DNA of 64,000 bases. Origin: a virus. Its lineage: Duplodnaviria; Heunggongvirae; Uroviricota; Caudoviricetes. The stretch lies in IMG/VR virus record IMGVR_UViG_3300033153_011579; one strand, written 5' to 3'. Both the position numbers and the translations under genes were made by a program. Under the pieces are notes generated by a model. The model saw only the letters and a list, made by a program, of their open reading frames with translations, searched no databases and was not told the DNA's origin. Below are positions 3,076 through 15,528 of the stretch, one piece after another; positions within the stretch are counted from its first letter, which is position 1, and the number at the start of each line of letters is the position of its first letter.

Positions 3076-3088
3076 CACGGAGAAGAAA

Positions 3089-4339: not shown

Positions 4340-4374
4340 GAGAATGCCGGATTCTATGACACGGAGGAGTGAAG

Positions 4375-4581: not shown

Positions 4582-4620
4582 GCTGTAAGAGAGTGATAGA
4601 TTCTCTGACACGGAGGATAA

Positions 4621-4744
4621 GTGGATCGACGGCAAGTACAAGGAATCCGGCATGGACATCGATGGCAACCTCGACCGCGAAGTTGCGATCTTCCACCTGA
4701 CCGGTAAGGGGCGGGAGGCCGCGAAAAGCGATGAGGAAAAATGA
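4621..4744 (+). pseudogene. Cassette-associated ORF with apparent frame disruption
   Basis: Cassette positions a GTG at 4621, but that frame stops after 28 Arg-rich codons. The +1 frame (…KWIDGKYKESGMDIDGNLDREVAIFHLTGKGREAAKSDEEK*) is protein-like but lacks a start. Confidence 0.3.
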
Positions 4745-4845: not shown

Positions 4846-4846
4846 G

Positions 4847-5339: not shown

Positions 5340-5418
5340 TGAGGAATGACACGTTCCTTACGAAGAAAACGAATTTTGTAAGAGAACCCCAAGATTCTCT
5401 GACATGGAGGAGATAGTG

Positions 5419-5682
5419 ATGTTCGACGATTGGTCAACTTGGCAACTAGTACTGACCGGTGTCTTCTACTTTTTTCTGTGTATGCTGATCGGATTTCTTG
5501 CCACAGCCGTCCCAGCCTGGGTGCAGCTGTGGAGGGTCAAACAAGAATGTCGGAGTCGGGTAGCTCAAGCCAATCGAAGGTTTGATCTGTCTACTCGTGA
5601 TTTGTGTAAGAGAATGTCGGTTTCTCTGACACGGAGAAGAGAATGGGAACGGAAAAAGATCAAGACAACGTCAGGCACCTGA
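5419..5682 (+). CDS. Small membrane protein (87 aa)
   Basis: Hairpin-B plus cassette-A in tandem upstream (5343-5418); N-terminal TM; ORF reads through the next cassette. Confidence 0.55.
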   Translation: MFDDWSTWQLVLTGVFYFFLCMLIGFLATAVPAWVQLWRVKQECRSRVAQANRRFDLSTRDLCKRMSVSLTRRREWERKKIKTTSGT

Positions 5683-5945
5683 ACCAGGGTGAGCAGGCTT
5701 TTGCCGATCTGATCTCTGTCCTCTCCGACGGGAAGGTCTCCCGCGTCGTGGTGGCCTACTACTGCGAGGAGGACGAGGACGAGGAAGCTGGCTGGTCCTA
5801 CGTCCGGGCCTCGAGACCACCGAGCCCCATCGGTAGCGCCATCGTAGAGGATGTTGGAGCCGCGTCCTTGTTATCCTTGTACGTCAGAGACTGGTACGAC
5901 TCCGCCATGGCGACCGAGACAACCCACGAGGTGCCGCGGAAGTGA
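5643..5945 (+). CDS. Hypothetical acidic protein (100 aa)
   Basis: Cassette 5610-5642 upstream. Confidence 0.6.
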   Translation: MGTEKDQDNVRHLNQGEQAFADLISVLSDGKVSRVVVAYYCEEDEDEEAGWSYVRASRPPSPIGSAIVEDVGAASLLSLYVRDWYDSAMATETTHEVPRK

Positions 5946-5952
5946 GGACAAG

Positions 5953-6282
5953 ATGGCTGTTGAGGAAACAACTGAAGAGCTGGCCCTGGAGGGACGCTCG
6001 GTGGTCATCGAGGTGACCCGCTTTCCCAAGGGCACATCCCGCGGCCGGGTGACATCGCTAGCCGTCGGCATCGAGCCCGACGTGAAGAATGGGGGCGACC
6101 CCGTCGATGTGTCTCCGGCCCTCGTGGTCGACGCGCTGATCTACGCCCTGAAGCTGAACTACGACGCCGAGAGCCAGCACGGGTCAAACGAGACGGCCGA
6201 GGACTACGTCGAGGACGTGGCGCGGATCCTGCTGTCGCAGATCGAGAACGACGAGCCGAGCTCGCTCATGCGGGTTCACTGA
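5953..6282 (+). CDS. Hypothetical acidic protein, paralogue copy 2 (109 aa)
   Basis: SD GAGGA upstream; near-identical to the 2746..3075 product, including the downstream partial cassette. Confidence 0.7.
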   Translation: MAVEETTEELALEGRSVVIEVTRFPKGTSRGRVTSLAVGIEPDVKNGGDPVDVSPALVVDALIYALKLNYDAESQHGSNETAEDYVEDVARILLSQIENDEPSSLMRVH

Positions 6283-6295
6283 CACGGAGGGGAAG

Positions 6296-6493
6296 ATGAG
6301 CCTGTTTTTTACGACGACAATTCGCGAGGATGTTGAGATCGAGGTCGATGTGGAGTGCTCGAGGTGTGGAGCCGCTCTCACGGCAACATCCAGAAGCGAA
6401 CACATCGGCTCCCACGATGAAAACCACCGGCTGGTGATCCACCCGTGCACCACCTGCTACCCGGTTGGCGCGACGGATACCGAGAGCTCGTAA
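6296..6493 (+). CDS. Zn-ribbon small protein (65 aa)
   Basis: Partial cassette CACTGACACGGAGGGGAAG-ATG; CSRCG…CTTC. Confidence 0.6.
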   Translation: MSLFFTTTIREDVEIEVDVECSRCGAALTATSRSEHIGSHDENHRLVIHPCTTCYPVGATDTESS

Positions 6494-6529
6494 GAGAATG
6501 TGCGTTTCTCTGACACGGAGGAGTGGCAA

Positions 6530-6802
6530 ATGAATAAAGAGAAGAAACTCAAGAAGCTCGGGATCCCAGACAAGACCGTAACCTGGGAAGAGTTCAAGGA
6601 ACTCCCGCAAACGCGTGGTGAAGGGATCTCCTTTAAAGCGCAAGGTGTTGGGGACTGGAAGGGTGAGTGGTTCTGGTTTGAGTCGCTAGGGGTGGTTGAG
6701 GTCGACCGCGCCTTGGCCGATGGCGAGGTTATCAGAGGAATGAAGGTCAACGCTGGGAACTGGCACAGGCTTGTTGTCGTTCCTCATAATTTTCCTCGCT
6801 GA
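6530..6802 (+). CDS. Hypothetical protein (90 aa)
   Basis: Cassette 6484-6529 upstream. Confidence 0.6.
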   Translation: MNKEKKLKKLGIPDKTVTWEEFKELPQTRGEGISFKAQGVGDWKGEWFWFESLGVVEVDRALADGEVIRGMKVNAGNWHRLVVVPHNFPR

Positions 6803-6828
6803 CGACCTGTAAGAGAATGGAGCGTTCT

Positions 6829-7152
6829 ATGACAGAGAAAGAGATCAAGCCGAAGATGGTGGATGGCGAGGCGGTGTGTTCTAAAAACTGTCCGCGTTAT
6901 GGGATTGAGCCATGCATGGGGCTTGTTGATTTATCCTCATGCGCCCCCTACTACCGCGCCCGTGTCGCCGAGCTCGAGGCACAGATTTCAAGAATCAGCG
7001 ATACGATCTACCGGGGTGCTCCGCTGTCGTGGGCAAAGGCTGAATTTCACGAGGTCGTGAGCGCCTGGGAGCTGGATCTCTGTATCGCTCTGAACTTATG
7101 CGGCTTCCGCGACGCCCTTGAGCATATTAAGGCGAAGAAAGATTCAGAGTAA
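6829..7152 (+). CDS. Cys-containing protein (107 aa)
   Basis: Degenerate cassette; paralogous segment with the 4847..5050 product. Confidence 0.55.
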   Translation: MTEKEIKPKMVDGEAVCSKNCPRYGIEPCMGLVDLSSCAPYYRARVAELEAQISRISDTIYRGAPLSWAKAEFHEVVSAWELDLCIALNLCGFRDALEHIKAKKDSE

Positions 7153-7185
7153 GAGAATTTTACGTTCTCTGACACGGAGAAAAAG

Positions 7186-7674
7186 ATGAAGACACAAAAA
7201 GAGATTGCAGACCGAGTGAGCAAGTTAGGCAAATCAGACTTCTTCGGGTTCAGGGCAGAGGTACTGATCGGCTACTTGGGTATGGAACTGCTGGTGCCGT
7301 TCTTGAAGGAGGGTGCCCGCAAGCGGTTTGAAGAAGACAAGGAGAATCCCTGGACTGACCCGGTTTTCACAGAAGATGAGGTCAAGAAGGACATGCTCGA
7401 CTATCTCAAATTCGCTTTTGAGAAGTGTTTAGACCACCGTGGTATCTCCGCGAACCGGAGCATCGAGAAACTCGTTGAGTGGGCGTGGATTCTGGGGAGG
7501 GACGACCTGGTGGAGTTCGCAGGAGAGGCAGGCAACTTCCGAAATTACGGTGCGCCGGTTCTAAAGAAATTCGCTGAGGGGTTCGAGATAGAGCTGCCCG
7601 AGGACGAGCGGTTTCACCGAATGGCTCGTGGAGAGCGCTGCGGAGCGGACTACGCTTGCGGTTGTAACGAGTGA
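7186..7674 (+). CDS. Hypothetical protein (162 aa)
   Basis: Cassette 7149-7185 upstream. Confidence 0.7.
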   Translation: MKTQKEIADRVSKLGKSDFFGFRAEVLIGYLGMELLVPFLKEGARKRFEEDKENPWTDPVFTEDEVKKDMLDYLKFAFEKCLDHRGISANRSIEKLVEWAWILGRDDLVEFAGEAGNFRNYGAPVLKKFAEGFEIELPEDERFHRMARGERCGADYACGCNE

Positions 7675-7712
7675 GCTTGTAAGAGAATTTTGCATTCTCT
7701 GACACGGAGAAG

Positions 7713-8054
7713 ATGATGAATCAGGATAGAGTAATCGAAATAGTGAGGGGCTGGCGGTGTCCTCACTGCTTCATGGAGTACGAGAACATTAAGGAAGCCC
7801 AGGAGTGCGATCAGCAGTGCTCCGCCTTCCTCGACGATGCTCCCCCAACTTGTGACTGGTGTGATCAGCCGGGAGAACACGAGAGTCCAGTCGAGGGGCT
7901 ACACTTTCTCATCAACTGTGGGCACTACATGTACGGTATGCATGAGGACGATAGTGGGGACGCTGAGAACGACCGCTACGAGACCGTCCAGCGGTTACGC
8001 GGTGTCGAGGCCCTTCCATGGGAGTACCCAGACGTCGGAGTGAAAGATGAATAA
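7713..8054 (+). CDS. Cys/His-rich putative Zn-binding protein (113 aa)
   Basis: Cassette upstream; CPHC…C…C…CDWCD…. Confidence 0.65.
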   Translation: MMNQDRVIEIVRGWRCPHCFMEYENIKEAQECDQQCSAFLDDAPPTCDWCDQPGEHESPVEGLHFLINCGHYMYGMHEDDSGDAENDRYETVQRLRGVEALPWEYPDVGVKDE

Positions 8055-8376
8055 GCCAGAAGAAGACTTTGGTCTCGTGGTCGAACTTCACGGCCCGCGC
8101 GTGATTCATCGGTGCCGAGACTGTGATCACAGGTTCGGGTCTCCGCCCAGGCATTGGCAATGTAAGGCGCACCCGCGTCACCTGGAAAACCCAGAATATG
8201 CTCTTCATTTGGTCGGAAGAGAGTTGGATGAAAGCGAGCTCACAGACGGATATGGGTTTTGTGACCTCATCCGTGTGGCGACACAGCCGACGTGTCCTGA
8301 GTTCGAGCCGCGTAGACCGGCGAGTGCTGGATTTGTGTCTTGGTGGAGAAGGCTGTTGGCGAAGTTCGGTCTGTAA
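8047..8376 (+). CDS. Zn-finger protein (109 aa)
   Basis: Overlaps upstream gene by 8 nt; CRDCDH…C…. Confidence 0.6.
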   Translation: MNKPEEDFGLVVELHGPRVIHRCRDCDHRFGSPPRHWQCKAHPRHLENPEYALHLVGRELDESELTDGYGFCDLIRVATQPTCPEFEPRRPASAGFVSWWRRLLAKFGL

Positions 8377-8410
8377 GAGAATTTATGATTCTCTGACACG
8401 AGATGGGTAG

Positions 8411-8650
8411 ATGAAGAAGCGAGCAAAACGAGTCGAAAGATTCCATGTGAGGTGTCCCTTTTGTGGCGATCTCGTGGACATCATGACGTCGCTCTCTTGG
8501 TGCTCTGGGTGTTTTGTCGAGTGGTACCGTACACGAGCTTGCAATTACATTTTTGATACCGAGAGGAAGACCGAGAGGTTCGTGTGGGCCAAGGCGGTGC
8601 AGAAGTCCGGAGGCATGCGGATCGCCTCAGCCAACGAGGACGATGAGTAA
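8411..8650 (+). CDS. Zn-ribbon protein (79 aa)
   Basis: Cassette 8376-8410 upstream; CPFCG…CSGC. Confidence 0.65.
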   Translation: MKKRAKRVERFHVRCPFCGDLVDIMTSLSWCSGCFVEWYRTRACNYIFDTERKTERFVWAKAVQKSGGMRIASANEDDE

Positions 8651-8683
8651 GAGAATTCAGGATTCTCTGACACGGAGGATGAG

Positions 8684-9052
8684 ATGTGGAACAGAGTAAT
8701 ATTCGCGGGCTGGATGGTAGTCGCGTTGCTGATCGGGGTCCTATTCGGCGCAGGCCTCTACCAAACCTGGCCGGCTAATCCCGACGTGATCGAGGACACC
8801 GAACCCTCAAGCGGTCGGCCCCTAGAGATCGAGATCTGCTCAGACGCGGCTGACCACTGCAACGATTCGGAGGACTGCGTAGAGGACGTATTCTCGCGGT
8901 GTCTTTACCACCTCGGGACGCCAACAATGTCCGACTGTCACGAAGAGTGCGCAGGGATCATGAAGGAGCTAAGCGACAAGAACGATGCGTGCTGGGATAG
9001 CTTCATGAACTGCCAAGACGTACTCGACGAGGTGTGGCGAGAAGCGCTGTAA
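8684..9052 (+). CDS. Membrane-anchored Cys-rich protein (122 aa)
   Basis: Cassette upstream; N-terminal TM then Cys-rich domain; paralogue of the 32459..32836 (-) product. Confidence 0.65.
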   Translation: MWNRVIFAGWMVVALLIGVLFGAGLYQTWPANPDVIEDTEPSSGRPLEIEICSDAADHCNDSEDCVEDVFSRCLYHLGTPTMSDCHEECAGIMKELSDKNDACWDSFMNCQDVLDEVWREAL

Positions 9053-9091
9053 GAGAATTGAGAATTCTCTGACACGGAAAAGAGGAACTCA

Positions 9092-9349
9092 GTGACTGAC
9101 GACATCATCCAGATTCGAACCGCGCCAGGATGCCGCAAGGAAAAGCCGATGCGGTATCTGGTGTTCCGCATCGAGTGCTACTACCCAGCGGGTGGGTGGG
9201 ACGACCTCGAAGCGACGACCAACGACAAGGAAACCGCAATCGAACTGGCCAAGAAAATTGAGGCTGAATTCAGCAGCGGCGAGGTGATTGACCTCGATAC
9301 TGGGACTCGCCTTTACCCGCCGTGGCGCGGTGACGACGAGGACGAGTAA
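9092..9349 (+). CDS. Hypothetical acidic protein (85 aa, GTG start)
   Basis: Cassette upstream with SD AGAGGA 5 nt before GTG. Confidence 0.55.
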   Translation: MTDDIIQIRTAPGCRKEKPMRYLVFRIECYYPAGGWDDLEATTNDKETAIELAKKIEAEFSSGEVIDLDTGTRLYPPWRGDDEDE

Positions 9350-9382
9350 GAGAATTGGCGATTCTCTGACACGGAGAGGAAG

Positions 9383-9634
9383 ATGACCAGGCTCGAACAG
9401 TACCAAAAACTCCACGAGATCTTCCTCGTGAACAGGTTTTCGGACGTGTTGACCGAGGCTGAAGAAGACGACCTGCTCTACGCCCTGGACGCCGTTTGGT
9501 GGCAGATGACGAGTGCGGAGCACGCCGAAGCGGAGAAGGACACCTGGATGTGGAATCGGGTGCTGCGGGGATGGTTCGCGCACATCGATCCCGCTGGCGG
9601 AACGAACAACCCAGTGATGAAGTGGAGCTTGTAA
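9383..9634 (+). CDS. Hypothetical protein (83 aa)
   Basis: Cassette upstream. Confidence 0.65.
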   Translation: MTRLEQYQKLHEIFLVNRFSDVLTEAEEDDLLYALDAVWWQMTSAEHAEAEKDTWMWNRVLRGWFAHIDPAGGTNNPVMKWSL

Positions 9635-9669
9635 GAGAACTGACAATTCCCTTACACGAGGAGGAGAGG

Positions 9670-9945
9670 ATGAGGCGGAATCGCAGAACAATGGTGGCCA
9701 CAAGCACGATAGGTTCGTGGATGAGCCGAGTGTATAGACTGGAAGCTGAGAACGAAAAGCTTCGTACTGATCTTCTCTTCGCCAAAGCAAAGATTAAGGC
9801 GATCCGGGTACGTATTGAGATGGTCGATGATGGGGAGAGCTGTTACCAGTCACACGACGCGGTACCAGACATTCTCAACATTCTGCGTGGGGGGACGCTT
9901 TGGACAGGAAGTCCACAGTACGCCGCCGTCAAAAAACGCCTGTAA
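9670..9945 (+). CDS. Hypothetical coiled-coil protein (91 aa)
   Basis: Cassette variant (ATTCCCTTACACGAGGAGGAGAGG-ATG); start relocated to ATG 9670. Confidence 0.6.
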   Translation: MRRNRRTMVATSTIGSWMSRVYRLEAENEKLRTDLLFAKAKIKAIRVRIEMVDDGESCYQSHDAVPDILNILRGGTLWTGSPQYAAVKKRL

Positions 9946-9982
9946 GAGAACCGACTGACTCTATTACACGAGGAGATAATAG

Positions 9983-10465
9983 ATGCACGGGCTAGGAAGA
10001 AGAGGAAACCGCCGGAAGAAACGCCTGAAGAAACATCGAGGCCGTACTCCTGCTAGAGTTTCGGCATCCAGCAAGGTCTACAACACTACCTCCAGGACCG
10101 TCGTCAAGACTGCTGCGCCCAGCACCGTCGTCACGTTCGACGACGTAGCTGATCTGGCCGAGGCGACCCTCGACGAGGAGAACGTGACCGCGCTGTTCAT
10201 GCGGTACGACAATAACATCAGGCCAACGCTCTTCTACACTGCCTACGCGGAAACTCCGTCTGGGCGCGTCTTCCTCCAGGCAGTCCATGTACTGTCGAAA
10301 GATGAGATCTACGAGAACCCAAAACACCCGCTGCCCTGTTACAGGGACGGCAAGGACATGAGGTGCCCCTATCCGCAGGAGCACATCATCGACAGGGCCG
10401 TTGAGTACTGGGAGTCCCGAGGGATTGACGTCTACGAGGGCACGGTGGAGATGAAGATTTTGTAA
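9983..10465 (+). CDS. Hypothetical protein (160 aa)
   Basis: Cassette upstream. Confidence 0.65.
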   Translation: MHGLGRRGNRRKKRLKKHRGRTPARVSASSKVYNTTSRTVVKTAAPSTVVTFDDVADLAEATLDEENVTALFMRYDNNIRPTLFYTAYAETPSGRVFLQAVHVLSKDEIYENPKHPLPCYRDGKDMRCPYPQEHIIDRAVEYWESRGIDVYEGTVEMKIL

Positions 10466-10499
10466 GAGAACCTTCTATTCCCTGACATGGAGGATTGAG

Positions 10500-10733
10500 A
10501 TGAAAACGGGAGAACGCGAACTGTTCAAGGTAACCGGACGACCTGGTCGCCGTATCTGGCGCAAACAAGCCGGAGCGCGAGGGTACCGACCCATCTGGAC
10601 CTCCGACTACGTTGAGGAGGTTGACGGGAAGTTCTTCTGCACGATTCGGAGTGAGTCCGAGAACGACCTGCCGATGGAGCAGCACGATAACCTTCAAGAC
10701 GCGCTCGAGTGGTTGATGAGGGATCGGACGTAA
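10500..10733 (+). CDS. Hypothetical protein (77 aa)
   Basis: Cassette upstream. Confidence 0.65.
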   Translation: MKTGERELFKVTGRPGRRIWRKQAGARGYRPIWTSDYVEEVDGKFFCTIRSESENDLPMEQHDNLQDALEWLMRDRT

Positions 10734-10766
10734 GAGAATCAACGATTCTCTGACATGGAGGACAGG

Positions 10767-10961
10767 ATGAAACGCACGCTGTTGACCGAGATCGACTTTG
10801 ACCGTCAGAGCTGTCGGGTCATCGAGGCGGAGATCATCAAGTGCAACACCTGTAAGGGTAGCGGTTGGAAAGAGGTTTCGACGCACCGCGGAAACTACAG
10901 ACGCCGCTGTGCTCAGTGCCACGGCACAGGCAAGGTGCTGGTGGGACCGAAGGTTCGATGA
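10767..10961 (+). CDS. Zn-ribbon protein (64 aa)
   Basis: Cassette upstream; CNTCKGSG…CAQCHGTG. Confidence 0.65.
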   Translation: MKRTLLTEIDFDRQSCRVIEAEIIKCNTCKGSGWKEVSTHRGNYRRRCAQCHGTGKVLVGPKVR

Positions 10962-11002
10962 CTGTAAGAGAACAGACGATTCTCTGACACGAGGAGAGAA
11001 GG

Positions 11003-11254
11003 ATGAATTTCAGTAACGAGCAAATGACAGAGTGGCTGTCGGAGGTTCCGGAAGCTACCAGCGTACGCTGCGTGGCTATCCCTCCGTACATCAGTAAAGA
11101 GATGAAGGAGCGGCCAGTGATTCCGTGGGATCTGCTTACCCGAGAAGTCAACAACAAGATAGGTGATGGTGACCGCGTACTCGGGATTCGTGCTGCGGGG
11201 GCCAACTCCTACGGCAATTACTGGATCATCATTTGGGTTGGCAACAAAGAGTGA
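11003..11254 (+). CDS. Hypothetical protein (83 aa)
   Basis: Cassette upstream. Confidence 0.65.
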   Translation: MNFSNEQMTEWLSEVPEATSVRCVAIPPYISKEMKERPVIPWDLLTREVNNKIGDGDRVLGIRAAGANSYGNYWIIIWVGNKE

Positions 11255-11293
11255 GCTTGTAAGAGAAACTAATATTCTCTGACGGAGGAGAGC

Positions 11294-11527
11294 ATGGACA
11301 ACGATACCAAAAGACTGTGTGGCAACTGCTTCTGGTTTGATCAAGAGCTCTGTCGACGACTGCCACCGCGCATGATTGACCAGGTAGATCTTTATGAAAA
11401 AGATAGTGAGTTCAACACCTGGAATGCCAGTTACGCAGACGACTACACCTCTTGGCCAGTTGTAGAAGAGAAAGCCTGGTGCGGAGAATGGCGATCGAAG
11501 GAAGACGGCTGGCCCGTCGGTAAGTAA
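11294..11527 (+). CDS. Hypothetical protein (77 aa)
   Basis: Cassette upstream. Confidence 0.65.
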   Translation: MDNDTKRLCGNCFWFDQELCRRLPPRMIDQVDLYEKDSEFNTWNASYADDYTSWPVVEEKAWCGEWRSKEDGWPVGK

Positions 11528-11559
11528 GAGAATCAAACATTCTCTGACACGAGGAGAAG

Positions 11560-11673
11560 ATGATGGAAATTCTAATTTTTTGGCTGTGCTTTTGTGGACT
11601 CGGAGCCGTTGGTATATTGGTAGCGTCCTTGGTGATCCTCAGTGAGGAACGTCAACGAAACGGTCGCCAGTAA
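11560..11673 (+). CDS. Small single-TM peptide (37 aa), not in ORF track
   Basis: Cassette 11526-11559 upstream; MMEILIFWLCFCGLGAVGILVASLVILSEERQRNGRQ*. Confidence 0.55.
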   Translation: MMEILIFWLCFCGLGAVGILVASLVILSEERQRNGRQ

Positions 11674-11714
11674 GAGAATCAGCACGTTCCCTGAAAGGAA
11701 GATTGGAGAACAAA

Positions 11715-11927
11715 ATGTCGAAGAACACGGTCACGCAGCACGTTTTGGTTGATTCCCATGTTGAGTGCTTCCCTGAGGAATTCCTCGAAGCACTTCTCGC
11801 AGTTTGTCCGGCTCCCTTGGCACCGGACAGTCTTAAACAACTCCGTGACATAGGGAGAGTCCAGTTGAGCCTCTGGCTTTCCCCGGAGGACTTGAAGCGC
11901 TGGACAGGTAAAGCGCCAGGGGAATGA
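11715..11927 (+). CDS. Hypothetical protein (70 aa)
   Basis: Hybrid A/B motif upstream (GTAAGAGAATCAGCACGTTCCCTG). Confidence 0.55.
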   Translation: MSKNTVTQHVLVDSHVECFPEEFLEALLAVCPAPLAPDSLKQLRDIGRVQLSLWLSPEDLKRWTGKAPGE

Positions 11928-11976
11928 CACTTTCCCTGTGCCTACACAACAACCGCCTAGTGGGGCAAGGAGTAGG

Positions 11977-12330
11977 ATGATGACAGAGCATACATTGACC
12001 GTTGGTGGAAGCGAGGTCGTGGTTTCGAGTAACCCTGTTTCAAGGGACCTTGTCGGCTCGGACCGCAGCTTCGGAGATGAACGCGCGCACCCATGTCCGA
12101 ACTGTAGCAAAAATAGTCTGCGCTACCATTTCCTCGACTACAGGCCTGCGCTGTCGTGGGCCTGCGTCGAGTGTGGCTATGCTGAGCACCCGCCGATTGA
12201 AAAGTTGGTTGCCGATGGGTACTCCCCGCAGAAGGTAGAGGAGGATTGGTCGACCTGCATTTACCCAAAGGAGTGGATGCTTTACTCCCCGCTTGAGCGG
12301 TTAGCGTCACCACAAACACGAAAGGATTAG
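11977..12330 (+). CDS. Zn-ribbon protein (117 aa)
   Basis: Hairpin-B at 11929, SD AAGGAG; CPNC…CVECG. Confidence 0.55.
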   Translation: MMTEHTLTVGGSEVVVSSNPVSRDLVGSDRSFGDERAHPCPNCSKNSLRYHFLDYRPALSWACVECGYAEHPPIEKLVADGYSPQKVEEDWSTCIYPKEWMLYSPLERLASPQTRKD

Positions 12331-12334
12331 AACG

Positions 12335-12685
12335 ATGGGTTTGTTTTCACCACCAGGCCAAGCTCCAGATCTCCGAGAGGCGAAAGATGTTAGAGTTATC
12401 GTCACCCTATGCAAGGACGAAGAACCAGGTGATGGATATGTCCGAACACAGATAACCGCTCTCGATGAACTCGAGGAGGGTGAAGAGGGTTTAAATATTA
12501 ACGGAGACAACGTCTTTGAGGCACTGGTTTACGCGCTGTACCACCACTTTGTAAACGAGCACGAGGTTGGGCATTCTTGTTGCCTTACTCATTTTATCGA
12601 AGAGATCACAGACCTACTGGAGCGTGTCAACGAGACTGACGGAAACGAAAAGGTCAGTCGGAGTTCTGAAGAACACACACATTAA
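12335..12685 (+). CDS. Hypothetical acidic protein (116 aa)
   Basis: SD AAAGGA upstream. Confidence 0.55.
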   Translation: MGLFSPPGQAPDLREAKDVRVIVTLCKDEEPGDGYVRTQITALDELEEGEEGLNINGDNVFEALVYALYHHFVNEHEVGHSCCLTHFIEEITDLLERVNETDGNEKVSRSSEEHTH

Positions 12686-12794
12686 TAAGGGTTATTGCAT
12701 CAGCTGCGGACCGTCGACCCTGTATGAGGAATGACACGTTCCCTGGTGGGAGAACGTCGAACTGGAGTGAGAGGAGTTTGAATGTTTAAAGCAC

Positions 12795-12943
12795 GTCGAG
12801 TTCTCCGAGCGCGCGGTGAGTGTGGACGGGGGCCTGCGTTGGGTTTTTGTGACGAATTCTCCTTAGCAGGCCTTCTACGTGGAGTGCTTCAACCATTCCA
12901 TCGACCTACTCGACCCACTCACCGCGCGCTCGGAGAACTCGAC
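12795..12943. repeat. 28-bp perfect inverted repeat with a 93-bp spacer in a non-coding gap
   Basis: GTCGAGTTCTCCGAGCGCGCGGTGAGTG (12795-12822) and its exact reverse complement at 12916-12943; an inner IR GGCCTGC/GCAGGCC lies in the loop. Confidence 0.85.
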
Positions 12944-12971
12944 GGCACGCAGTCGGGGGAAGGAGAAAAGA

Positions 12972-13181
12972 ATGCGAAAATATCGATTTCAGCACGATGA
13001 GGATGGTGACGTGCTGTGGGTCTACATCGCCGGTAACTCCGCGTACCCAGGGGAGCACCGCTTCGATCCACCAGAAGTTTTGGAGGCCTACATCGGTTAC
13101 CTTCGAGCATGTAAAGGTGATCAACTTGATTCTGATGTAGTTATCGCCTGGAAGGACAGTGCTTGGGGTCCGGATGTCTGA
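12972..13181 (+). CDS. Hypothetical protein (69 aa)
   Basis: SD GGAAGGAGAAAAG upstream; the region 12686-12971 upstream is non-coding and structured. Confidence 0.5.
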   Translation: MRKYRFQHDEDGDVLWVYIAGNSAYPGEHRFDPPEVLEAYIGYLRACKGDQLDSDVVIAWKDSAWGPDV

Positions 13182-13232
13182 TGACACGTTCCCTGGTACC
13201 CCTATGCCCAAACACTAGGCAGGAGGAATGAG

Positions 13233-13412
13233 ATGTCTGAAAAGAAAGCTGTGGTTCAACGTGTTGTCATCCACGAACTCTTGGATGCAGGTGTGGTGGC
13301 GATCGAAGGACGTGATCTTGTGTTCGAGTCCCCCTGGGACAAGGGCTCAGAGGCGATGATTGCTTTGATGAAGAAAGGCCTCGTCAAAGACGTGGTCCGG
13401 GACAGGGAATGA
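13233..13412 (+). CDS. Hypothetical protein (59 aa), not in ORF track
   Basis: Hairpin-B at 13188, SD AGGAGGAATGAG-ATG; MSEKKAVVQRVVIHELLDAGVVAIEGRDLVFESPWDKGSEAMIALMKKGLVKDVVRDRE*. Confidence 0.5.
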   Translation: MSEKKAVVQRVVIHELLDAGVVAIEGRDLVFESPWDKGSEAMIALMKKGLVKDVVRDRE

Positions 13413-13437
13413 CACGTCCCCTGAAAGGAGAAGCCCG

Positions 13438-13713
13438 ATGGGTCAAACAACATCCGACAATCCAGGTGGAGTGAAGTCGCTCTTCGAAGATAACAACTCA
13501 CAAAAAGCTACTGCCTCCACGCTCGCCGGATACCTCGTCGAAGATGGTGCTTGGATGGTATTGCCAGATGGGGACCGCGAGATCACTATTGTGCGGCACA
13601 GAGACTATGGCACGATCATGTATCTCATTGATGGTCCAGGCGAGGATATAAGAAGCGGCGTAGTAAAAACGGTGCGAGAACTCGCTGACGCCATCGCCGT
13701 TGGTGGGGAATGA
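13438..13713 (+). CDS. Hypothetical protein (91 aa)
   Basis: Hairpin-B 13408 plus SD AAAGGAGAAG upstream. Confidence 0.6.
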   Translation: MGQTTSDNPGGVKSLFEDNNSQKATASTLAGYLVEDGAWMVLPDGDREITIVRHRDYGTIMYLIDGPGEDIRSGVVKTVRELADAIAVGGE

Positions 13714-13774
13714 CACGTTCCCTAGGAACTTGAGCTTGTAAGAGAATCTCGCATTCTCTGACACGGAGGAAAAA

Positions 13775-13954
13775 ATGGACGAACACATGAGATATTTAGG
13801 CTGCCTGAAACTACTTGAGGATTGCTCACCTTACGTACCGGAAGAGATTCGTGAGGGTATCGAGATGGCTCACGACGATGCTGTAGAGGCCAGCAACGGG
13901 ACCTTGCGGGCTCGCAGTGTGCTCGATCGACGAGAGATCGAGGTGGTGACGTAA
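13775..13954 (+). CDS. Hypothetical protein (59 aa), not in ORF track
   Basis: Tandem hairpin-B plus cassette-A upstream (13711-13774). Confidence 0.5.
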   Translation: MDEHMRYLGCLKLLEDCSPYVPEEIREGIEMAHDDAVEASNGTLRARSVLDRREIEVVT

Positions 13955-13985
13955 GAGAATCCGCACGTTCTCTTACACGGAGGAA

Positions 13986-14189
13986 ATGATGGGTAAAGAT
14001 GTGAGGACCAAGACATTCGCTATGATGTTTCGGGAGCGCTGCGTGATCATGCGGGATGCTTTCGACCGCCGTGACGTAGAGGGCTTTGCTACTGCTCTCA
14101 AGGACGTTGAGCGCCTGATGCGAGAGCACGCCGAGGGGTGCGGCTGCTCACAATGCCGAGAGACGCTGAAGATCATGAATGAGGTGTAA
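13986..14189 (+). CDS. Cys-containing protein (67 aa)
   Basis: Cassette upstream; CGCSQC. Confidence 0.6.
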   Translation: MMGKDVRTKTFAMMFRERCVIMRDAFDRRDVEGFATALKDVERLMREHAEGCGCSQCRETLKIMNEV

Positions 14190-14223
14190 GAGAATACACA
14201 CGTCCTTTAACACGGAGGAAACG

Positions 14224-14460
14224 ATGAGTACTGTTCTGGATAATGACCAAAAATTGATGGTAATTCTGGCGGTTGTGGTGGCACTCTTCCTGTTAATTTT
14301 GGCTGGTGGGAAGCTTATTGGTGATGTTTTGTCACCCCCAACACCCCAAGAGGACTGTATGAACCAGGCCCAGCAGCTGGACAGCGAGGAGTCTGAGAAA
14401 GAAGCCTACTACAAGTGTCTTGAGTCTTTAGGGCTGGAAGATCCTAAAAAGGCTTTGTAA
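14224..14460 (+). CDS. Small membrane protein (78 aa)
   Basis: Cassette upstream; TM LMVILAVVVALFLLILAGG. Confidence 0.65.
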   Translation: MSTVLDNDQKLMVILAVVVALFLLILAGGKLIGDVLSPPTPQEDCMNQAQQLDSEESEKEAYYKCLESLGLEDPKKAL

Positions 14461-14492
14461 GAGAATCTTCCGTTCTCTGACACGGAGAAGAA

Positions 14493-15164: not shown

Positions 15165-15528
15165 CGTGTTCCTTCCCGGGCGAGGCTGGCTACTCGTGAA
15201 GCCACCGGAGTCGGAAGCCGACACAGGAGAGGTCTACACTGTCGACGTGATCGAGCTCGCCGCCGAGGAGAAGTCCGCGTGCCCGCAGTTCCAGGAGGAG
15301 ACAGCGATACGCGGTGCTGGCGGCGCTCCGATGATGACCGTGGACATCGTGCTCCCGAAGCGCTGCTACGTCGGTGACCGGTGGAGCGTACTAAAGGACA
15401 GAGACGCAGTGCGCGAGGTACCCGACCTGGACGGTGCCCTGCTCAAGACCGAGGAGGTGATCGGCTGGGAGTGGGAGGACGACCGTCTCAAGCCGCCTCC
15501 TGGCGTCGTAGAGGACCTGGACTCCTGA
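15148..15528 (+). CDS. Hypothetical protein (126 aa); weak GroES-like N-terminus
   Basis: PGRGWLLVKPPESEADTGEVY loosely resembles the GroES mobile-loop region; speculative. Confidence 0.4.
   Translation: MFLKNSVFLPGRGWLLVKPPESEADTGEVYTVDVIELAAEEKSACPQFQEETAIRGAGGAPMMTVDIVLPKRCYVGDRWSVLKDRDAVREVPDLDGALLKTEEVIGWEWEDDRLKPPPGVVEDLDS

What the first reader, a model, noticed from the sequence alone, without database searches (positions are those of the whole stretch)
5343..13729. Second hairpin family (GGGAA-TGACACG-TTCCC) sharing the TGACACG heptamer with cassette A
- Seven copies cluster at 11.7-13.7 kb plus one at 5.3 kb.
- TGACACG is the hairpin loop here, whereas in cassette A it lies 3' of the stem.
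- Two loci (5343-5418, 13711-13774) carry B then A in tandem, and one (11674) is an A/B hybrid.
- This suggests TGACACG is the recognised element, for protein binding or RNA processing, and the stems are interchangeable scaffolds. Alternatively two regulatory classes (temporal switch) exist.
Basis: seen in the sequence. Interest (0 to 1): 0.7.

Follow-up and report, generated by a model that had tools for sequence, protein, structure and literature searches.

The report
One stop–hairpin–start cassette, two versions
The "second hairpin family" is a variant of one repeated ~40-base linker that sits between almost every small gene of a 13-kb accessory-gene array in a novel phage-like element. It carries the stop codon, a palindrome and the ribosome-binding site, much like the unexplained ESAS/SAS repeats of mycobacteriophages and the PeSL cassettes of T4-like phages.

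Summary
The enrichment is real. TGACACG occurs 25 times on the + strand of 1.1-14.6 kb (1.6 expected) and once in the other 49 kb (4.1 expected).

A and B are not two scaffolds around one recognised heptamer. Both use the same palindrome, G(A/G)GAAT-N5-6-(A/G)TTC(T/C)C.
- **A (29 copies):** the left arm holds the upstream stop (G-TAA-GAGAAT). The right arm runs on into TGACA, then CG, GGAGG and the next ATG, typically 36 nt after the TAA.
- **B (5 full copies, 1 half, 1 A/B hybrid, not 7+1):** the arms enclose GACAC. Its ATGA is a stop/start overlap opening a 7-21 codon mini-ORF, which usually ends at the next start.

A related contig keeps the cassette but mostly with TTACACG. Other relatives have no array. 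All carry the palindrome beside the -35 of the early promoter.

My best reading is an mRNA-level stop-hairpin-SD linker whose right arm can alternatively pair with the SD, doubling as a recombination junction for ORFan shuffling. This is inferred, and no covariation proves the fold. A DNA-binding regulator ("stoperator"-like) or recombinase-site role is not excluded.

It is a new variant of a known kind (ESAS/SAS, PeSL) with function untested.

The parts
82..969 (+). Tyrosine recombinase (integrase), left flank of the array
   Evidence: Pfam Phage_integrase, weak. Weak NCBIfam XerA/XerC-like hits. Homologues of 58-62% identity in relatives.
966..1139 (+). 57-aa Cys-rich ORF that ends in the TAA of the first cassette
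   Evidence: Shared only with L089, the only other contig with an array.
1133..1172 (+). A cassette (TAA 1137; spacer TGATGAA)
   Evidence: CM 47.2 bits. The TAA is the upstream stop.
1730..1769 (+). A cassette (TAA 1734; left arm GGGAAT)
   Evidence: CM 49.8 bits. The upstream stop is a TGA 6 nt before, in frame.
2015..2054 (+). A cassette (TAA 2019; left arm GGGAAT)
   Evidence: CM 48.9 bits. The TAA is the stop.
2469..2508 (+). A cassette (TAA 2473)
   Evidence: CM 47.0 bits.
2706..2742 (+). A cassette, heptamer shortened (TGACGAGGAG)
   Evidence: CM 31.7 bits; not in the training set.
3073..3088 (+). TGACACG-GAGAAG module without hairpin; its TGA is the stop of ORF 2746-3075
4333..4372 (+). 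A cassette (TAA 4337)
   Evidence: CM 47.3 bits.
4582..4621 (+). A cassette (TAA 4586)
   Evidence: CM 50.0 bits.
5342..5358 (+). B palindrome AGGAA-TGACACG-TTCCT (both arms changed relative to GGGAA/TTCCC)
5346..5381 (+). Mini-ORF MTRSLRRKRIL, from the ATGA of B to the TAA of the next A cassette
5375..5415 (+). A cassette (TAA 5379; heptamer TGACATG; 8-nt spacing)
   Evidence: CM 49.5 bits.
5603..5642 (+). A cassette (TAA 5607)
   Evidence: CM 51.4 bits.
6280..6295 (+). TGACACG-GAGGGG module without hairpin; its TGA is the stop of ORF 5953-6282 (paralogue of 2746-3075)
6487..6526 (+). A cassette (TAA 6491)
   Evidence: CM 50.5 bits.
6806..6843 (+). A cassette variant. The heptamer position reads TATGACAG, and its ATG (6829) is the predicted start of the 107-aa ORF 6829-7152.
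   Evidence: CM 31.4 bits.
7146..7185 (+). A cassette (TAA 7150)
   Evidence: CM 49.8 bits.
7676..7715 (+). A cassette, extended form TGAGCTTGTAAGAG (stops in three frames)
   Evidence: CM 54.2 bits.
8370..8409 (+). A cassette (TAA 8374)
   Evidence: CM 41.2 bits.
8644..8683 (+). A cassette (TAA 8648)
   Evidence: CM 51.1 bits.
9046..9085 (+). A cassette (TAA 9050)
   Evidence: CM 51.7 bits.
9343..9382 (+). A cassette (TAA 9347)
   Evidence: CM 51.5 bits.
9628..9667 (+). A cassette with TTCCC arm and TTACACG. It is 95% identical over 44 nt to L089 11049-11092.
9939..9979 (+). A cassette, degenerate right arm (CTCTA-TTACACG)
   Evidence: CM 26.5 bits.
10459..10498 (+). A cassette (TTCCC arm, TGACATG)
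   Evidence: CM 45.4 bits.
10727..10766 (+). A cassette (TGACATG; spacer TCAACGA, identical to that of L089 10415)
10961..11000 (+). A cassette (TAA 10965)
   Evidence: CM 43.0 bits.
11256..11292 (+). A cassette, extended form TGAGCTTGTAAG, heptamer shortened (TGACGG)
   Evidence: CM 22.9 bits.
11521..11560 (+). A cassette (TAA 11525)
   Evidence: CM 45.3 bits.
11667..11706 (+). A/B hybrid: TAAGAGAAT-CAGCACG-TTCCC, no heptamer after it
   Evidence: CM 21.7 bits.
11920..11936 (+). B palindrome GGGAA-TGACACT-TTCCC; its TGA is the stop of ORF 11715-11927
11924..11980 (+). Mini-ORF (18 codons) whose TGA overlaps the ATG of ORF 11977-12330 (ATGA)
12727..12743 (+). B palindrome AGGAA-TGACACG-TTCCC
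12731..12781 (+). Mini-ORF (16 codons) ending TGA immediately before ATG 12782
13177..13193 (+). Half B: TGATGACACGTTCCC. Right arm only. Upstream stop TGA 13179-13181 overlaps ATG 13181.
13181..13231 (+). Mini-ORF (16 codons) ending 1 nt before ATG 13233
13405..13421 (+). B palindrome GGGAA-TGACACG-TCCCC; its TGA is the stop of ORF 13233-13412
13409..13474 (+). Mini-ORF (21 codons). The exception: it overlaps the start of ORF 13438-13713 out of frame.
13706..13722 (+). B palindrome GGGAA-TGACACG-TTCCC (exact); its TGA is the stop of ORF 13438-13713
13710..13733 (+). Mini-ORF MTRSLGT ending at the TGA of the extended A cassette
13735..13774 (+). A cassette (TAA 13739), tandem with B 13706
   Evidence: CM 54.9 bits.
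13948..13988 (+). A cassette with TTACACG. Its spacer TCCGCACG is identical to that of L089 12292.
14183..14223 (+). A cassette, right arm TCCTT, TAACACG
   Evidence: CM 40.3 bits.
14454..14493 (+). Last A cassette (TAA 14458)
   Evidence: CM 54.2 bits.
14493..16487 (+). Conserved gene trio (223, 126 and 338 aa), the right flank of the array. In relatives without an array it lies just downstream of the integrase (abutting it in L099/L100, 0-5 short ORFs between in the others).

Best explanation
A and B are two versions of one portable intercistronic cassette. It punctuates a hyperplastic array of about 45 small ORFan genes (1.1-14.5 kb), between an integrase and a conserved gene trio, in a novel temperate phage-like element. 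One relative is binned as Planctomycetota.

The core is the palindrome G(A/G)GAAT-N5-6-(A/G)TTC(T/C)C.

- **Version A:** c-TG-TAA-GAGAAT / N5 / ATTCTC-TGACA / CG / GGAGG / N3-5 / ATG. The upstream ORF stops at the foot of the left arm. The Shine-Dalgarno (SD) begins 2 nt after the right arm.
- **Version B:** the arms GGGAAT/GTTCCC enclose GACAC, so the heptamer lies in the middle. Its ATGA is a stop/start overlap that opens a short bridging ORF (MTRSL...). That ORF ends at the next gene's start, or at the stop of a following A cassette.

Inferred mechanism, on the polycistronic mRNA:
1. The palindrome folds (H1) between the stop and the SD.
2. The pyrimidine right arm can instead pair with the SD (H2: UUCUCUG-ACA-CGGAGGA).
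3. Each junction is therefore a weak two-state element. It insulates or gates the ribosome-binding site and ties initiation to termination at the preceding ORF.

The ~40 nt are the only sequence shared by otherwise unrelated ORFans, so the cassettes also serve as crossover points for gene gain and loss.

TGACACG is not a free-standing recognition site. It is the overlap of the arm end (TGACA), a stop codon or ATGA, and a 2-nt link to the SD.
For: Shown:
- **Copy number and location.** A covariance model finds 29 A copies, all on the + strand and all within 1133-14493, and nothing else in 64 kb.
- **Same arms in A and B**.
- **Stop codon placement.** 19 of 29 upstream ORFs stop at the cassette TAA. 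21 of 26 are in its frame (binomial 9e-7). None is translated through the hairpin. The TAA-to-ATG distance is typically 36 nt, range 33-44 with one exception (the 6810 variant, 19 nt).
- **Alternative folds.** H1 and H2 are both compatible with the sequences, at 84.5% and 90.5% of cells paired. They are near iso-energetic, at -5.3 and -4.2 kcal/mol on average. P(SD unpaired) ranges 0.04-0.99.
- **B mini-ORFs.** They end at the next start in 3 of 4 stand-alone copies, and at the A cassette's stop in both tandems. At 6829 the same ATGACA is the predicted start of a 107-aa ORF.
- **Comparative data.** The array has 0 copies in L091, L094, L099 and L101-103, one degenerate copy in L092, 6 in L089, and 29 A + 5 B in the window. 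All sit between the same flanking genes.
- **Similarity confined to cassettes.** Window-L089 DNA similarity is limited to the cassettes, at <=44 nt and up to 95%.
- **Not promoters, not a known RNA.** There are no sigma-70-like promoters or terminators at the cassettes and no Rfam family.

Inferred: the fold, the switch, the coupling, and recombination at the cassettes.
Against: - **No covariation.** Neither H1 nor H2 exceeds shuffles (413/500 and 109/500 shuffles reach the observed score). The pairing could simply follow from conserved sequence.
- **Mismatch spectrum.** In the five core pairs, RNA-incompatible A.C mismatches (11) are at least as common as G.U (7).
- **A DNA-level copy.** The same palindrome lies just upstream of the -35 of the predicted early promoter in six related contigs. 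Five of those copies sit in a divergent intergenic region; the sixth (L096, the window's own phage) lies downstream of the same-strand sigma gene and could be transcribed. An mRNA role is unlikely there, which points to DNA-level recognition.
- **Sequence conservation.** Arm sequence, not only structure, is conserved. Spacers are conserved between window and L089: 4 of 6 are within one edit, reached by 0 of 5000 shuffles. A simple hairpin does not require either.
- **Direction of the switch.** A ribosome sitting on the TAA would favour H2, which closes the SD. The sign of any coupling is therefore unclear.
- **Gene calls.** The ORF calls are my own SD-based heuristic.
Confidence: 0.42

Rival explanations
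1. DNA-level control. The palindrome is the binding site of a phage or host regulator that acts at the early promoter and at about 35 intergenic sites inside the operon. This would be operator plus 'stoperator'-like road-blocks, silencing the ORFan array in lysogeny. The stop codon and SD sit next to it only because the intergenic space is minimal and the unit spread by duplication.
For: - The palindrome abuts the -35 (TTGACA/TTGACC) of the conserved predicted early promoter in six contigs, at a fixed distance from the right arm.
- In the window's own phage that copy reads AGGGAAT-CCCCT-ATTCTCT, which has the same arms as cassettes 1734 and 2019.
- The commonest cassette right arm matches each phage's own promoter copy: TTCTC in the window, TTCCC in L089.
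- Arm sequence is conserved.
- A.C and G.T mismatches are equally common.
- The element carries an integrase, so it is probably temperate.
- There is a precedent in Cluster A mycobacteriophage stoperators, which lie in short intergenic regions or overlap start/stop codons (PMC9283540; PMC3203893 contrasts them with SAS).
Against: - Half-site spacing varies from 6 to 8 nt, both at promoters and in cassettes. That is awkward for a rigid dimer.
- The promoter region has a better operator candidate. The iteron TTTCCCGTG occurs 3-5 times upstream and once inside the -35/-10 spacer.
- The model does not explain the frame bias of upstream stops (9e-7), the absence of read-through, the fixed 36-nt stop-to-start distance, or the B mini-ORFs.
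- No copies occur in the other operons of the window.
Confidence: 0.25
2. TGACACG is itself the recognised element (for a protein or RNA-processing factor), displayed either in a loop (B) or 3' of a stem (A), and the stems are interchangeable scaffolds.
For: - The heptamer is 15-fold enriched and strand-specific.
- It occurs with the SD but without any hairpin at 3073, 6280 and L091 8691.
- Four of the five full B copies plus the half copy carry exactly TGACACG as the spacer (11920 reads TGACACT), whereas A spacers vary.
- In both A (H2) and B it can form the same UG-ACA-CG apex.
Against: - The heptamer is less conserved than the arms. It is exact in 18 of 29 window A copies and in 1 of 6 L089 copies, with TTACACG, TGACATG, TAACACG and shortened forms elsewhere.
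- The stems are the same in A and B.
- In A, TGACA mirrors TGTAA as part of the arm, and the TTAC variants make the palindrome perfect (pair 8-29 is A-U in 6 copies and unpaired in 24).
- H2 drops to 5 of 7 pairs in 4 of 6 L089 cassettes.
Confidence: 0.1
3. mRNA processing or stability. The hairpins are 3'-end protective or endonuclease-recognition structures. They would cut the long early transcript into stable monocistronic units, as the T7 RNase III sites and REP elements do, or as Cas6-like cleavage at the 3' foot of the stem would. Each mRNA would then begin at UGACACG-GGAGG.
For: - There is a hairpin at the 3' end of nearly every ORF, and a conserved sequence immediately 3' of the stem.
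- A B-like palindrome follows the stop of a minus-strand gene in L089 (5851-5869).
- No internal promoters are predicted across 14 kb.
Against: - The stems are short (5-11 bp, -3 to -10 kcal/mol). That is too short for RNase III.
- No nuclease candidate was identified.
- There is no covariation.
- The promoter-proximal copy is unexplained.
Confidence: 0.1
4. Site-specific recombination sites. The palindromes are core-type sites (5-7-bp arms and a 6-8-bp central region) for the adjacent tyrosine recombinase, which would make the array an integron-like gene-capture locus.
For: - The architecture and the 6-8-nt central region match tyrosine-recombinase core sites.
- The array starts one small gene after the integrase.
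- The promoter-proximal copy is flanked by direct and inverted 9-mers on both sides, resembling attP arm-type sites.
- Spacer identities are conserved between phages although the neighbouring genes differ.
- Array size is 0, 1, 6 and 29+ between the same flanking genes.
Against: - Relatives with an integrase about 60% identical have no array.
- The integrase is not IntI-like: NCBIfam gives 26 bits against a cutoff of 220.
- The spacers differ between almost all copies, so most pairs could not recombine.
- The cassette carries translation signals at fixed spacing, which attC sites do not.
- No excised circles or population variants were seen. The three JGI samples are 99.9% identical.
Confidence: 0.08
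5. The cassettes are promoters, either host sigma-70 type or recognised by the phage's own sigma factor, with TGACA acting as a -35.
For: - cTGACA matches TTGACA at 5 of 6 positions.
- The hairpin-plus-TGACA arrangement parallels the hairpin-plus-TTGACA of the early promoter.
- A sigma-70-family gene lies just upstream of that promoter.
Against: - There is no -10. The start codon lies 15-17 nt after TGACA, and nothing at the -10 position is conserved.
- The promoter scan finds 4 sites in 17 kb against 5.6 expected, none at a hairpin-bearing cassette; one uses the CTGACA of the hairpin-less module at 3073 as its -35.
- L089 has cassettes, but no sigma gene in the part of it that I could see.
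Confidence: 0.03

Closest known systems
Start-associated sequences and extended SAS (SAS/ESAS) of Cluster K mycobacteriophages (Pope et al. 2011, PMC3203893; survey 2025, PMC12699233)
   Same: - A conserved asymmetric motif containing an SD-like core lies a few nt before the start codons of non-structural genes.
- In about half the cases it is preceded by imperfect inverted repeats with a variable spacer.
- The repeats also occur alone, or the motif occurs alone.
- All copies have one orientation and are restricted to the non-structural part of a temperate phage genome.
- The element is conserved across related phages in front of unrelated genes.
- The function is still untested.
   Different: - Different sequences: GGGATAGGAGCCC with 17-bp repeats, against T(G/T)ACACG-GGAGG with 5-11-bp arms.
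- A different host phylum.
- Here the left arm contains the upstream stop codon.
- Copy density is far higher, at 35 in 13 kb.
- The stop-to-start spacing is fixed at about 36 nt.
- The same palindrome sits at the early promoter.
PeSL cassettes (promoter-early stem-loops) of T4-type phages (Arbiol et al. 2010, PMC2839356; Comeau et al. 2014, PMC4122927)
   Same: - Short conserved composite expression cassettes with a stem-loop flank ORFans in hyperplastic regions.
- They are the only similarity between otherwise different genes.
- They are associated with insertion, deletion and replacement of ORFans between relatives.
- One PeSL subclass has the stem-loop just upstream of the -35, like this lineage's early promoter.
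   Different: - PeSLs contain a full sigma-70 promoter, and their stem-loops terminate transcription. The array cassettes here have no -10 and no U-tract.
- Here the cassette carries a stop codon and an SD, which are translation signals.
- Recombination at the cassettes is inferred here, not shown. I have no mini-circle data.
Stoperators of Cluster A mycobacteriophages (L5, Bxb1; PMC9283540, PMC6550527)
   Same: - The motif is present at the early promoter and also at many short intergenic sites or sites overlapping stop/start codons.
- The phage is temperate.
   Different: - Stoperators are 13-bp asymmetric sites bound by a monomeric repressor, and they are spread over the whole genome.
- Here the site is a palindrome with variable spacing and is confined to one array.
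- Binding is untested here.
Integron attC cassette arrays
   Same: - Tandem promoterless small ORFs in one orientation.
- Each ORF is followed by an imperfect palindrome at or over its stop codon.
- A tyrosine recombinase lies next to the array.
- Array length varies between relatives.
   Different: - There is no IntI-type integrase and no R''/L''-L'/R' boxes or GTTRRRY.
- The sites are 17-27 bp, against 55-140 bp for attC.
- The SD is part of the repeat.
- Relatives with a closely related (~60% identical) integrase lack arrays.
SD-sequestering hairpins in translationally coupled operons (general mechanism; my own knowledge)
   Same: An anti-SD-like pyrimidine tract can pair with the SD of the downstream cistron, and an alternative pairing frees it.
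   Different: - Here the competitor arm lies downstream of the stop codon. A terminating ribosome would therefore favour the closed state rather than the open one.
- The element is repeated 29 times with conserved sequence.

Membership tests
SAS/ESAS (Cluster K mycobacteriophages) | 13-bp motif GGGATAGGAGCCC (<=2 mismatches) 3-8 bp upstream of start codons | tested here: not met
   The motif here is T(G/T)ACA(C/T)G-GGAGG. It shares only the SD-like core. The definition is from PMC3203893 and PMC12699233.
SAS/ESAS (Cluster K mycobacteriophages) | Imperfect 17-bp inverted repeats with a 4-13-bp spacer immediately upstream of a subset of the motifs | tested here: inconclusive
   The architecture is analogous, with 5-11-bp arms and a 5-8-nt spacer, but the sequence is unrelated and the arms are shorter.
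SAS/ESAS (Cluster K mycobacteriophages) | One orientation; restricted to non-structural genes; conserved in front of unrelated gene families | tested here: met
   All 29 A copies and 5 B copies are on the + strand in the ORFan array. L089 shares the cassettes but not the flanking genes.
PeSL (T4-type phages) | Contains a consensus sigma-70 early promoter (-35, -10, AT-rich upstream region) | tested here: not met
   There is no -10 and no promoter-like site at any hairpin-bearing cassette; the one cassette-linked hit lies at the hairpin-less module at 3073. Only the single early-promoter copy outside the window (L096 4220-4275) has this layout.
PeSL (T4-type phages) | Stem-loop that terminates or attenuates transcription | not testable with these tools
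   A hairpin is possible, but no U-tract follows it. The terminator-like scan finds none on the + strand at the cassettes; two weak minus-strand matches (13960-13981, 14469-14486) overlap cassettes 13952 and 14458.
PeSL (T4-type phages) | Flanks ORFans in hyperplastic regions and marks indel or replacement boundaries between relatives | tested here: met
   Arrays of 0, 1, 6 and 29+ cassettes lie between the same flanking genes. Similarity to L089 is limited to the cassettes.
Stoperators (Cluster A mycobacteriophages) | The same motif at the early lytic promoter and at many intergenic sites | tested here: met
   The palindrome lies next to the -35 in six contigs and in 34 intergenic sites of the window.
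Stoperators (Cluster A mycobacteriophages) | 13-14-bp asymmetric site, orientation-dependent, bound by the immunity repressor, blocks elongation | tested here: not met
   The site is a palindrome with 6-8-nt spacing. Binding and road-block activity cannot be tested here.
Integron (attC array + IntI) | IntI-type integrase | tested here: not met
   NCBIfam 'tyrosine recombinase/integron integrase' scores 26.1 bits against a cutoff of 220. The Pfam Phage_integrase hit is weak.
Integron (attC array + IntI) | attC sites of 55-140 bp with R''/L''...L'/R' boxes (RYYYAAC / GTTRRRY) | tested here: not met
   The repeats are 17-27-bp palindromes without these boxes. The attC definition is from my own knowledge.
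Intrinsic (Rho-independent) terminators | GC-rich stem followed by a U-tract | tested here: not met
   The stems are A/U-rich, and CG-GGAGG or CCCTGG follows them. One search lists no + strand terminator at a cassette.
Any Rfam family | Match at the gathering threshold | tested here: not met
   There are 0 matches in the 64 kb.

The most novel reading that the evidence does not exclude
The array is a phage-borne, integron-like gene-capture locus. The palindromes (5-7-bp arms, 6-8-bp centre) would be core-type sites for the adjacent tyrosine recombinase. The promoter-proximal copy with its flanking 9-mer repeats would be the primary att site. The conserved spacers would be crossover identities that decide which cassettes can be exchanged. 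Each captured ORFan would be delivered ready-made with a stop codon and a ribosome-binding site.
Probability: 0.08. Interest if true: 0.85.

Novelty: new variant of a known kind. Interest (0 to 1): 0.55.

Why it matters
Conserved repeats at gene junctions of phage accessory regions (ESAS/SAS, PeSL) are known, but mostly unexplained or documented in only a few lineages.

This is an unusually clean and dense example: 35 copies in 13 kb, in an unrelated and barely sampled phage lineage. Its parts can be read directly:
- a stop codon in the left arm;
- an anti-SD-like right arm;
- the SD and the start at fixed distances;
- a variant with a stop/start overlap and a bridging mini-ORF.

That makes a specific, testable proposal for how such cassettes could work, as portable translational junctions. 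It also suggests how ORFan arrays grow (0 to 6 to 29+ cassettes between the same flanking genes). The presence of the same palindrome at the early promoter offers a sharp DNA-versus-RNA experiment.

If the mechanism holds, the cassette would also be a compact natural 'insulated RBS linker' for synthetic operons.

Tried and rejected
**Close relatives in public collections**
- Megablast of 1-15 kb and 30-50 kb, and tblastn of the 681-aa ORF, against 50,697 phage records found nothing.
- The search for related loci in IMG/VR found nothing.
- Exact and degenerate cassette patterns were searched in viral, metagenome and GTDB contigs. Only single chance hits appeared, none with a TAA or SD context.

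**Strain variation at cassettes**
- The JGI contigs of the same phage are 99.9% identical and have no indels.

**Promoter reading**
- Rejected. There is no -10, and the consensus scan finds nothing at any hairpin-bearing cassette; its one nearby hit uses the CTGACA of the hairpin-less module at 3073.
- A sigma-54 reading was considered from memory. TGACACG resembles the TGGCACG -24 element, but the GG/GC invariants and the TTGC at -12 are absent.
- ECF-type GGAAT-N18-GTT was also checked by eye and not found.

**Terminator reading**
- Rejected, because there is no U-tract.

**Known RNA families and tRNAs**
- None found.

**Covariation tests of H1 and H2**
- Uninformative. The columns hardly vary, and neither structure exceeds shuffles.

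**Extended SD / 16S complementarity of ACACG**
- Considered from my own knowledge of the 16S 3' tail. Only GGAGG pairs.

**The 338-aa flank protein as a second recombinase**
- A profile search against PDB sequences gave no hit, so this is left open.

**A cassette-specific factor**
- The 57-aa Cys-rich ORF is shared only by the two array-bearing contigs. With n=2, this is not evidence.

**Function of array genes**
- Ten array or flank ORFs have no Pfam family at a significant level.

Full report

TGACACG occurs 27 times in the window, against 11.2 +/- 3.3 in dinucleotide shuffles, and no shuffle reaches 27.
- 25 of the 26 + strand hits lie between 1157 and 14484.
- Under a first-order model the array (1101-14600) should hold 1.6 + strand copies and holds 25.
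- The remaining 49 kb should hold 4.1 and holds 1.
The motif is enriched, strand-specific and junction-specific.

GGGAATGACACGTTCCC with up to 3 mismatches gives 5 sites against 0.24 expected: 5342, 11920, 12727, 13405 and 13706.
- There is also a half copy at 13177-13193 with the right arm only.
- There is a hybrid at 11671-11691, TAAGAGAAT-CAGCACG-TTCCC.
- The count is therefore 4 full + 1 half + 1 hybrid in 11.7-13.7 kb, plus 5342. It is not 'seven plus one'.
- The two B-then-A tandems are as described.

**2. Anatomy of cassette A**

A relaxed pattern finds 29 + strand copies. A covariance model built from 24 window and 6 L089 copies finds the same 29, at 21.7-54.9 bits, all within 1133-14493. 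The model's best hit elsewhere in the window has E = 0.45.

The consensus is c-TG-TAA-GAGAAT-N5-ATTCTC-TGACACG-GAGGAG-N3-5-ATG.
(c)TGTAAGAGAAT pairs with ATTCTCTGACA over 11 positions, with one A.G mismatch.
- The first five bases of the heptamer are therefore the outer end of the right arm. The mismatched G is what makes it TGA rather than TTA.
- By my own SD-based gene calls, 19 of 29 upstream ORFs stop at the cassette's TAA.
- Two more have an in-frame TGA 6 nt before it, and five stop 7-10 nt before it.
- None is translated through the hairpin.
- 21 of 26 being in the TAA frame has binomial P = 9e-7.
- Many of these proteins end in Leu or Val (CTG/TTG/GTG before the TAA).
- The next start codon follows the TAA by 36 nt in most cases; the range is 33-44 nt, apart from the 6810 variant (19 nt).
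- Some copies have the extended form TGAGCTTGTAAGAG...TCTGACACG, which closes all three frames.

**3. Anatomy of B, and its relation to A**

B is GGGAAT-GACAC-GTTCCC. These are the same arms as A (GAGAAT...ATTCTC) with one transition on each side, and the same 7-nt distance between GRGAA and TTCYC.

All four arm combinations exist at the variable pair: A-T 26, G-C 11, G.T 3 and A.C 6, counted over 46 copies including promoter copies.

Several A copies in the same part of the array have loops ending in CACG before GTTCTC (11671, 13952, 14187), so B grades into A.

B is not followed by an attached SD. Instead, its A-TGA-CACG contains an ATGA.
- The TGA is the stop of the upstream ORF at 11925, 13410 and 13711. 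At 13179 there is a TGATG overlap instead.
- The ATG opens a mini-ORF (MTRSL..., 7-21 codons).
- At 11978 that mini-ORF ends on an ATGA overlap with the next start. At 12779 it ends as TGA-ATG. At 13229 it ends 1 nt before the ATG.
- In the two tandems it ends at the stop codons of the following A cassette (TAA 5379, TGA 13731).
- 13405 is the exception.
- This was noticed post hoc. I estimate, roughly and without formal computation, a few per cent chance per locus.
- At 6829 the same ATGACA, in a mutated A cassette (TATGACAG), is the predicted start of a 107-aa ORF.

**4. Context**

The window belongs to a novel phage-like element.
- It has no nucleotide or structural-protein relatives among 50,697 phage records or in IMG/VR.
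- Its 681-aa ORF has only four other clusters among 5.8 billion proteins.
- Genes on 1-16.5 kb are on the + strand: an integrase, about 45 ORFans without Pfam families, then a trio of 223, 126 and 338 aa.
- Genes on 16.5-36 kb are on the - strand. They include a PurA/PurZ-like enzyme, DUF5131, thioredoxin and a response-regulator domain protein.
- Genes on 36.4-64 kb are on the + strand.

Relatives were reached through the integrase (58-62% identity) and the 223-aa protein.
- In L091, L092/93, L094/95, L099/100 and L101-103 the trio lies just downstream of the integrase: directly abutting it in L099/L100 and L102, with zero to five short ORFs between in the others. None has an array.
- L092 has one degenerate cassette elsewhere (3395).
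- L089 has six cassettes between the integrase plus 57-aa ORF and the trio.
- The array is thus a hyperplastic zone, with 0, 6 and 29 A + 5 B cassettes.
- L099 is on an 81-kb contig binned as Planctomycetota. The window's own contig is 82 kb.

**5. What the relatives say about the heptamer**

- In L089 the forms are TTACACG (3), TTACATA (1), TGACATG (1) and TGACACG (1).
- In the window 18 of 29 A copies are exact.
- TTAC turns the A.G mismatch into A-T, making the palindrome perfect. It also removes the UG...CG apex of H2.
- The arms and ACACG-GGAGG are therefore more conserved than 'TGACACG'.
- Conversely, TGACACG-GGAGG occurs without any hairpin directly before start codons at 3073 and 6280 (paralogous genes) and at L091 8691.
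- There are thus two separable modules: a palindrome, and a start-associated T(G/T)ACA(C/T)G-GGAGG.
- This is the same logic as ESAS and SAS in Cluster K mycobacteriophages (PMC3203893).

**6. DNA similarity between window and L089**

- Similarity in the array is confined to the cassettes, at <=44 nt and up to 95%.
- Protein searches link only one or two of the array ORFs.
- Four of six L089 spacers have a window counterpart within one edit, reached by 0 of 5000 shuffles.
- In the window, spacer types form three blocks: GAATG at 1.1-6.8 kb, GAATT at 7.1-9.3 kb, and GAATC/GAAC at 9.6-14.5 kb. That is 5 runs, reached by 0 of 20,000 shuffles.
- Cassettes therefore have conserved identities and spread or homogenise locally.

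**7. RNA-level reading**

- As RNA, the palindrome folds (H1). B folds as a 7-bp stem with an ACA triloop.
- The right arm plus heptamer can alternatively pair with the SD (H2: UUCUCUG-ACA-CGGAGGA).
- H1 and H2 exclude each other and are near iso-energetic, at -5.3 and -4.2 kcal/mol on average in the window and -5.2 and -4.0 in L089.
- The predicted probability that the SD is unpaired ranges from 0.04 to 0.99, with a mean of 0.57.
- With the left arm covered by a ribosome on the TAA, the remainder folds into H2 in most copies.
- Both structures are compatible with the alignment, at 84.5% and 90.5% of cells paired. Neither shows covariation beyond shuffles (413/500 and 109/500).
- In the core pairs, A.C mismatches (11) are not rarer than G.U (7).
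- The fold is therefore plausible but unproven.
- The stop-frame bias, the absence of read-through, the fixed spacing and the mini-ORFs are the main arguments that the element works in translation.

**8. DNA-level evidence**

The same palindrome lies immediately upstream of the -35 of a conserved sigma-70-like promoter: TTGACA, a 17-bp spacer whose last bases include the TG of an extended -10, then TAnnnT (TTGACA-N14-TGnTAnnnT). This promoter heads the operon.

| Contig | Sequence |
|---|---|
| L091, from 2149 | AGGGAATGTGAATTCCCT-A-TTGACA |
| L092, from 121 | AGGGAATGCGAATTCCCT |
| L094, from 79 | AGGGAATGTTAATATTCCCT |
| L089, from 7277 | AGGGAAACCAGTATTCCCT |
| L099, from 4765 | AGGGAATAGTCAATTCCCT |
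| L096 4220-4240 (the window's own phage, 1.2 kb left of the window) | AGGGAATCCCCTATTCTCT-AGC-TTGACC...TGcTATAT |

- In five of the six contigs this copy sits in a divergent intergenic region. In L096, the window's own phage, it lies downstream of the + strand sigma-70-family gene (3433-4107) and could be transcribed with it.
- It lies next to 9-mer iterons (TTTCCCGTG; 3-5 upstream, one in the promoter spacer) and a TGTRYACA-A-TGTRYACA repeat.
- An mRNA role there is unlikely. The arms' sequence conservation, and the match between each phage's promoter right arm and its commonest cassette right arm (TTCTC against TTCCC), fit a trans-acting factor.
- Against a rigid dimeric DNA binder, the half-site distance varies from 6 to 8 nt, both at promoters and in cassettes.
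- The same architecture (short inverted arms and a 6-8-bp centre) is what tyrosine recombinases use. This keeps an integron-like reading alive at low probability.

**9. Rejected readings**

- **Promoters:** there is no -10, and the scan found 4 sites against 5.6 expected. None lies at a hairpin-bearing cassette; one (3072-3099) uses the CTGACA of the hairpin-less TGACACG module at 3073 as its -35.
- **Intrinsic terminators:** there is no U-tract.
- **Known RNA families:** none.
- **Chance:** excluded.

**10. Verdict**

This is one family of stop-palindrome-start cassettes with a B variant. It is not two scaffolds displaying one recognised heptamer. It works like ESAS/SAS in layout and like PeSLs in genomic role, but it is a member of neither: the sequence differs, there is no promoter, and translation signals are built in. 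Stoperator-like control remains a serious rival because of the promoter-proximal copy.

I rate the RNA/translation-junction mechanism at about 0.4, the DNA-regulator mechanism at about 0.25, and the others lower. I rate the structural statement (one family, portable junction of a hyperplastic ORFan array) much higher, at about 0.85.

Noticed in passing
L096 4108-4296 (same phage, 1.1-1.3 kb left of window position 1); also L089 7130-7340, L091 2040-2230, L092 1-200, L094 1-160, L099 4650-4870: A conserved early regulatory region. It holds 3-5 direct or inverted iterons TTTCCCGTG plus one inside the promoter spacer, a double palindrome TGTRYACA-A-TGTRYACA, the AGGGAAT...ATTCYCT palindrome, and then TTGACA-N14-TGnTAnnnT. 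It could be an operator cluster, an origin or an attP.
   Followed up: partly
L096 3433-4107 (just outside the window, same phage): A sigma-70-family gene (Pfam Sigma70_r2 + r4) lies immediately upstream of the early promoter. It is absent at this position in the relatives.
   Followed up: no
window 26259-27368 (-): An adenylosuccinate-synthetase homologue. The Pfam hit is 1e-39. The NCBIfam PurZ hit is only 38.7 bits against a cutoff of 300. It is 33-35% identical to 'PurA-like / 2-aminooxy adenylosuccinate synthetase' genes of Rhizobium phages and Cluster C mycobacteriophages. This hints at modified purine metabolism.
   Followed up: partly
L089 9849-10232: The relative encodes a ribosomal protein S12 homologue (Pfam Ribosom_S12_S23), one small ORF (78 aa, 9634-9870) downstream of its integrase and upstream of its cassette array.
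   Followed up: no
L089 5851-5869 and 5869-7059 (-): An AcrVA2-like gene. A B-like palindrome (GGGGAATGTTGAGTTCCCC) directly follows its stop codon on the minus strand, and TACTTGACC follows that on the plus strand.
   Followed up: no
window 2746-3075 and 5953-6282: These are two 109-aa paralogues, 90% identical. They are the only detectable duplication in the array. Both end in the TGA of a hairpin-less TGACACG-SD. A homologue in L091 (6741-7067) lies upstream of the integrase.
   Followed up: partly
window 966-1139: A 57-aa Cys-rich (zinc-ribbon-like) ORF lies directly before the first cassette. Its only homologue is at the same position in L089, the only other array-bearing contig.
   Followed up: partly
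window 1137-14458: The first bases of the cassette spacers form three contiguous blocks: GAATG, GAATT and GAATC/GAAC. This suggests block-wise origin or local homogenisation of cassettes. The array is also the lowest-GC part of the window (0.525-0.588, against about 0.58-0.64 elsewhere).
   Followed up: partly
window 9092-9349; L092 2676-2864: A small ORF with a precomputed Pfam Phage_T4_Y07C hit lies inside the array in the window. In L092 it lies upstream of the integrase. This is an example of an ORFan at different positions in relatives.
   Followed up: no
window 36150-36470: A divergent intergenic region lies between the minus- and plus-strand modules. It has long C and A runs (CCCCCCCCTAAAAAACGAAAAAAAACG...AAAAAAAACG) and TTGACA-like hexamers. 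I did not analyse it.
   Followed up: no
L099 3754-4430: A roughly 700-bp non-coding stretch upstream of the relative's early region. It is built of degenerate ~60-bp repeats, each ending in CATGC.
   Followed up: no
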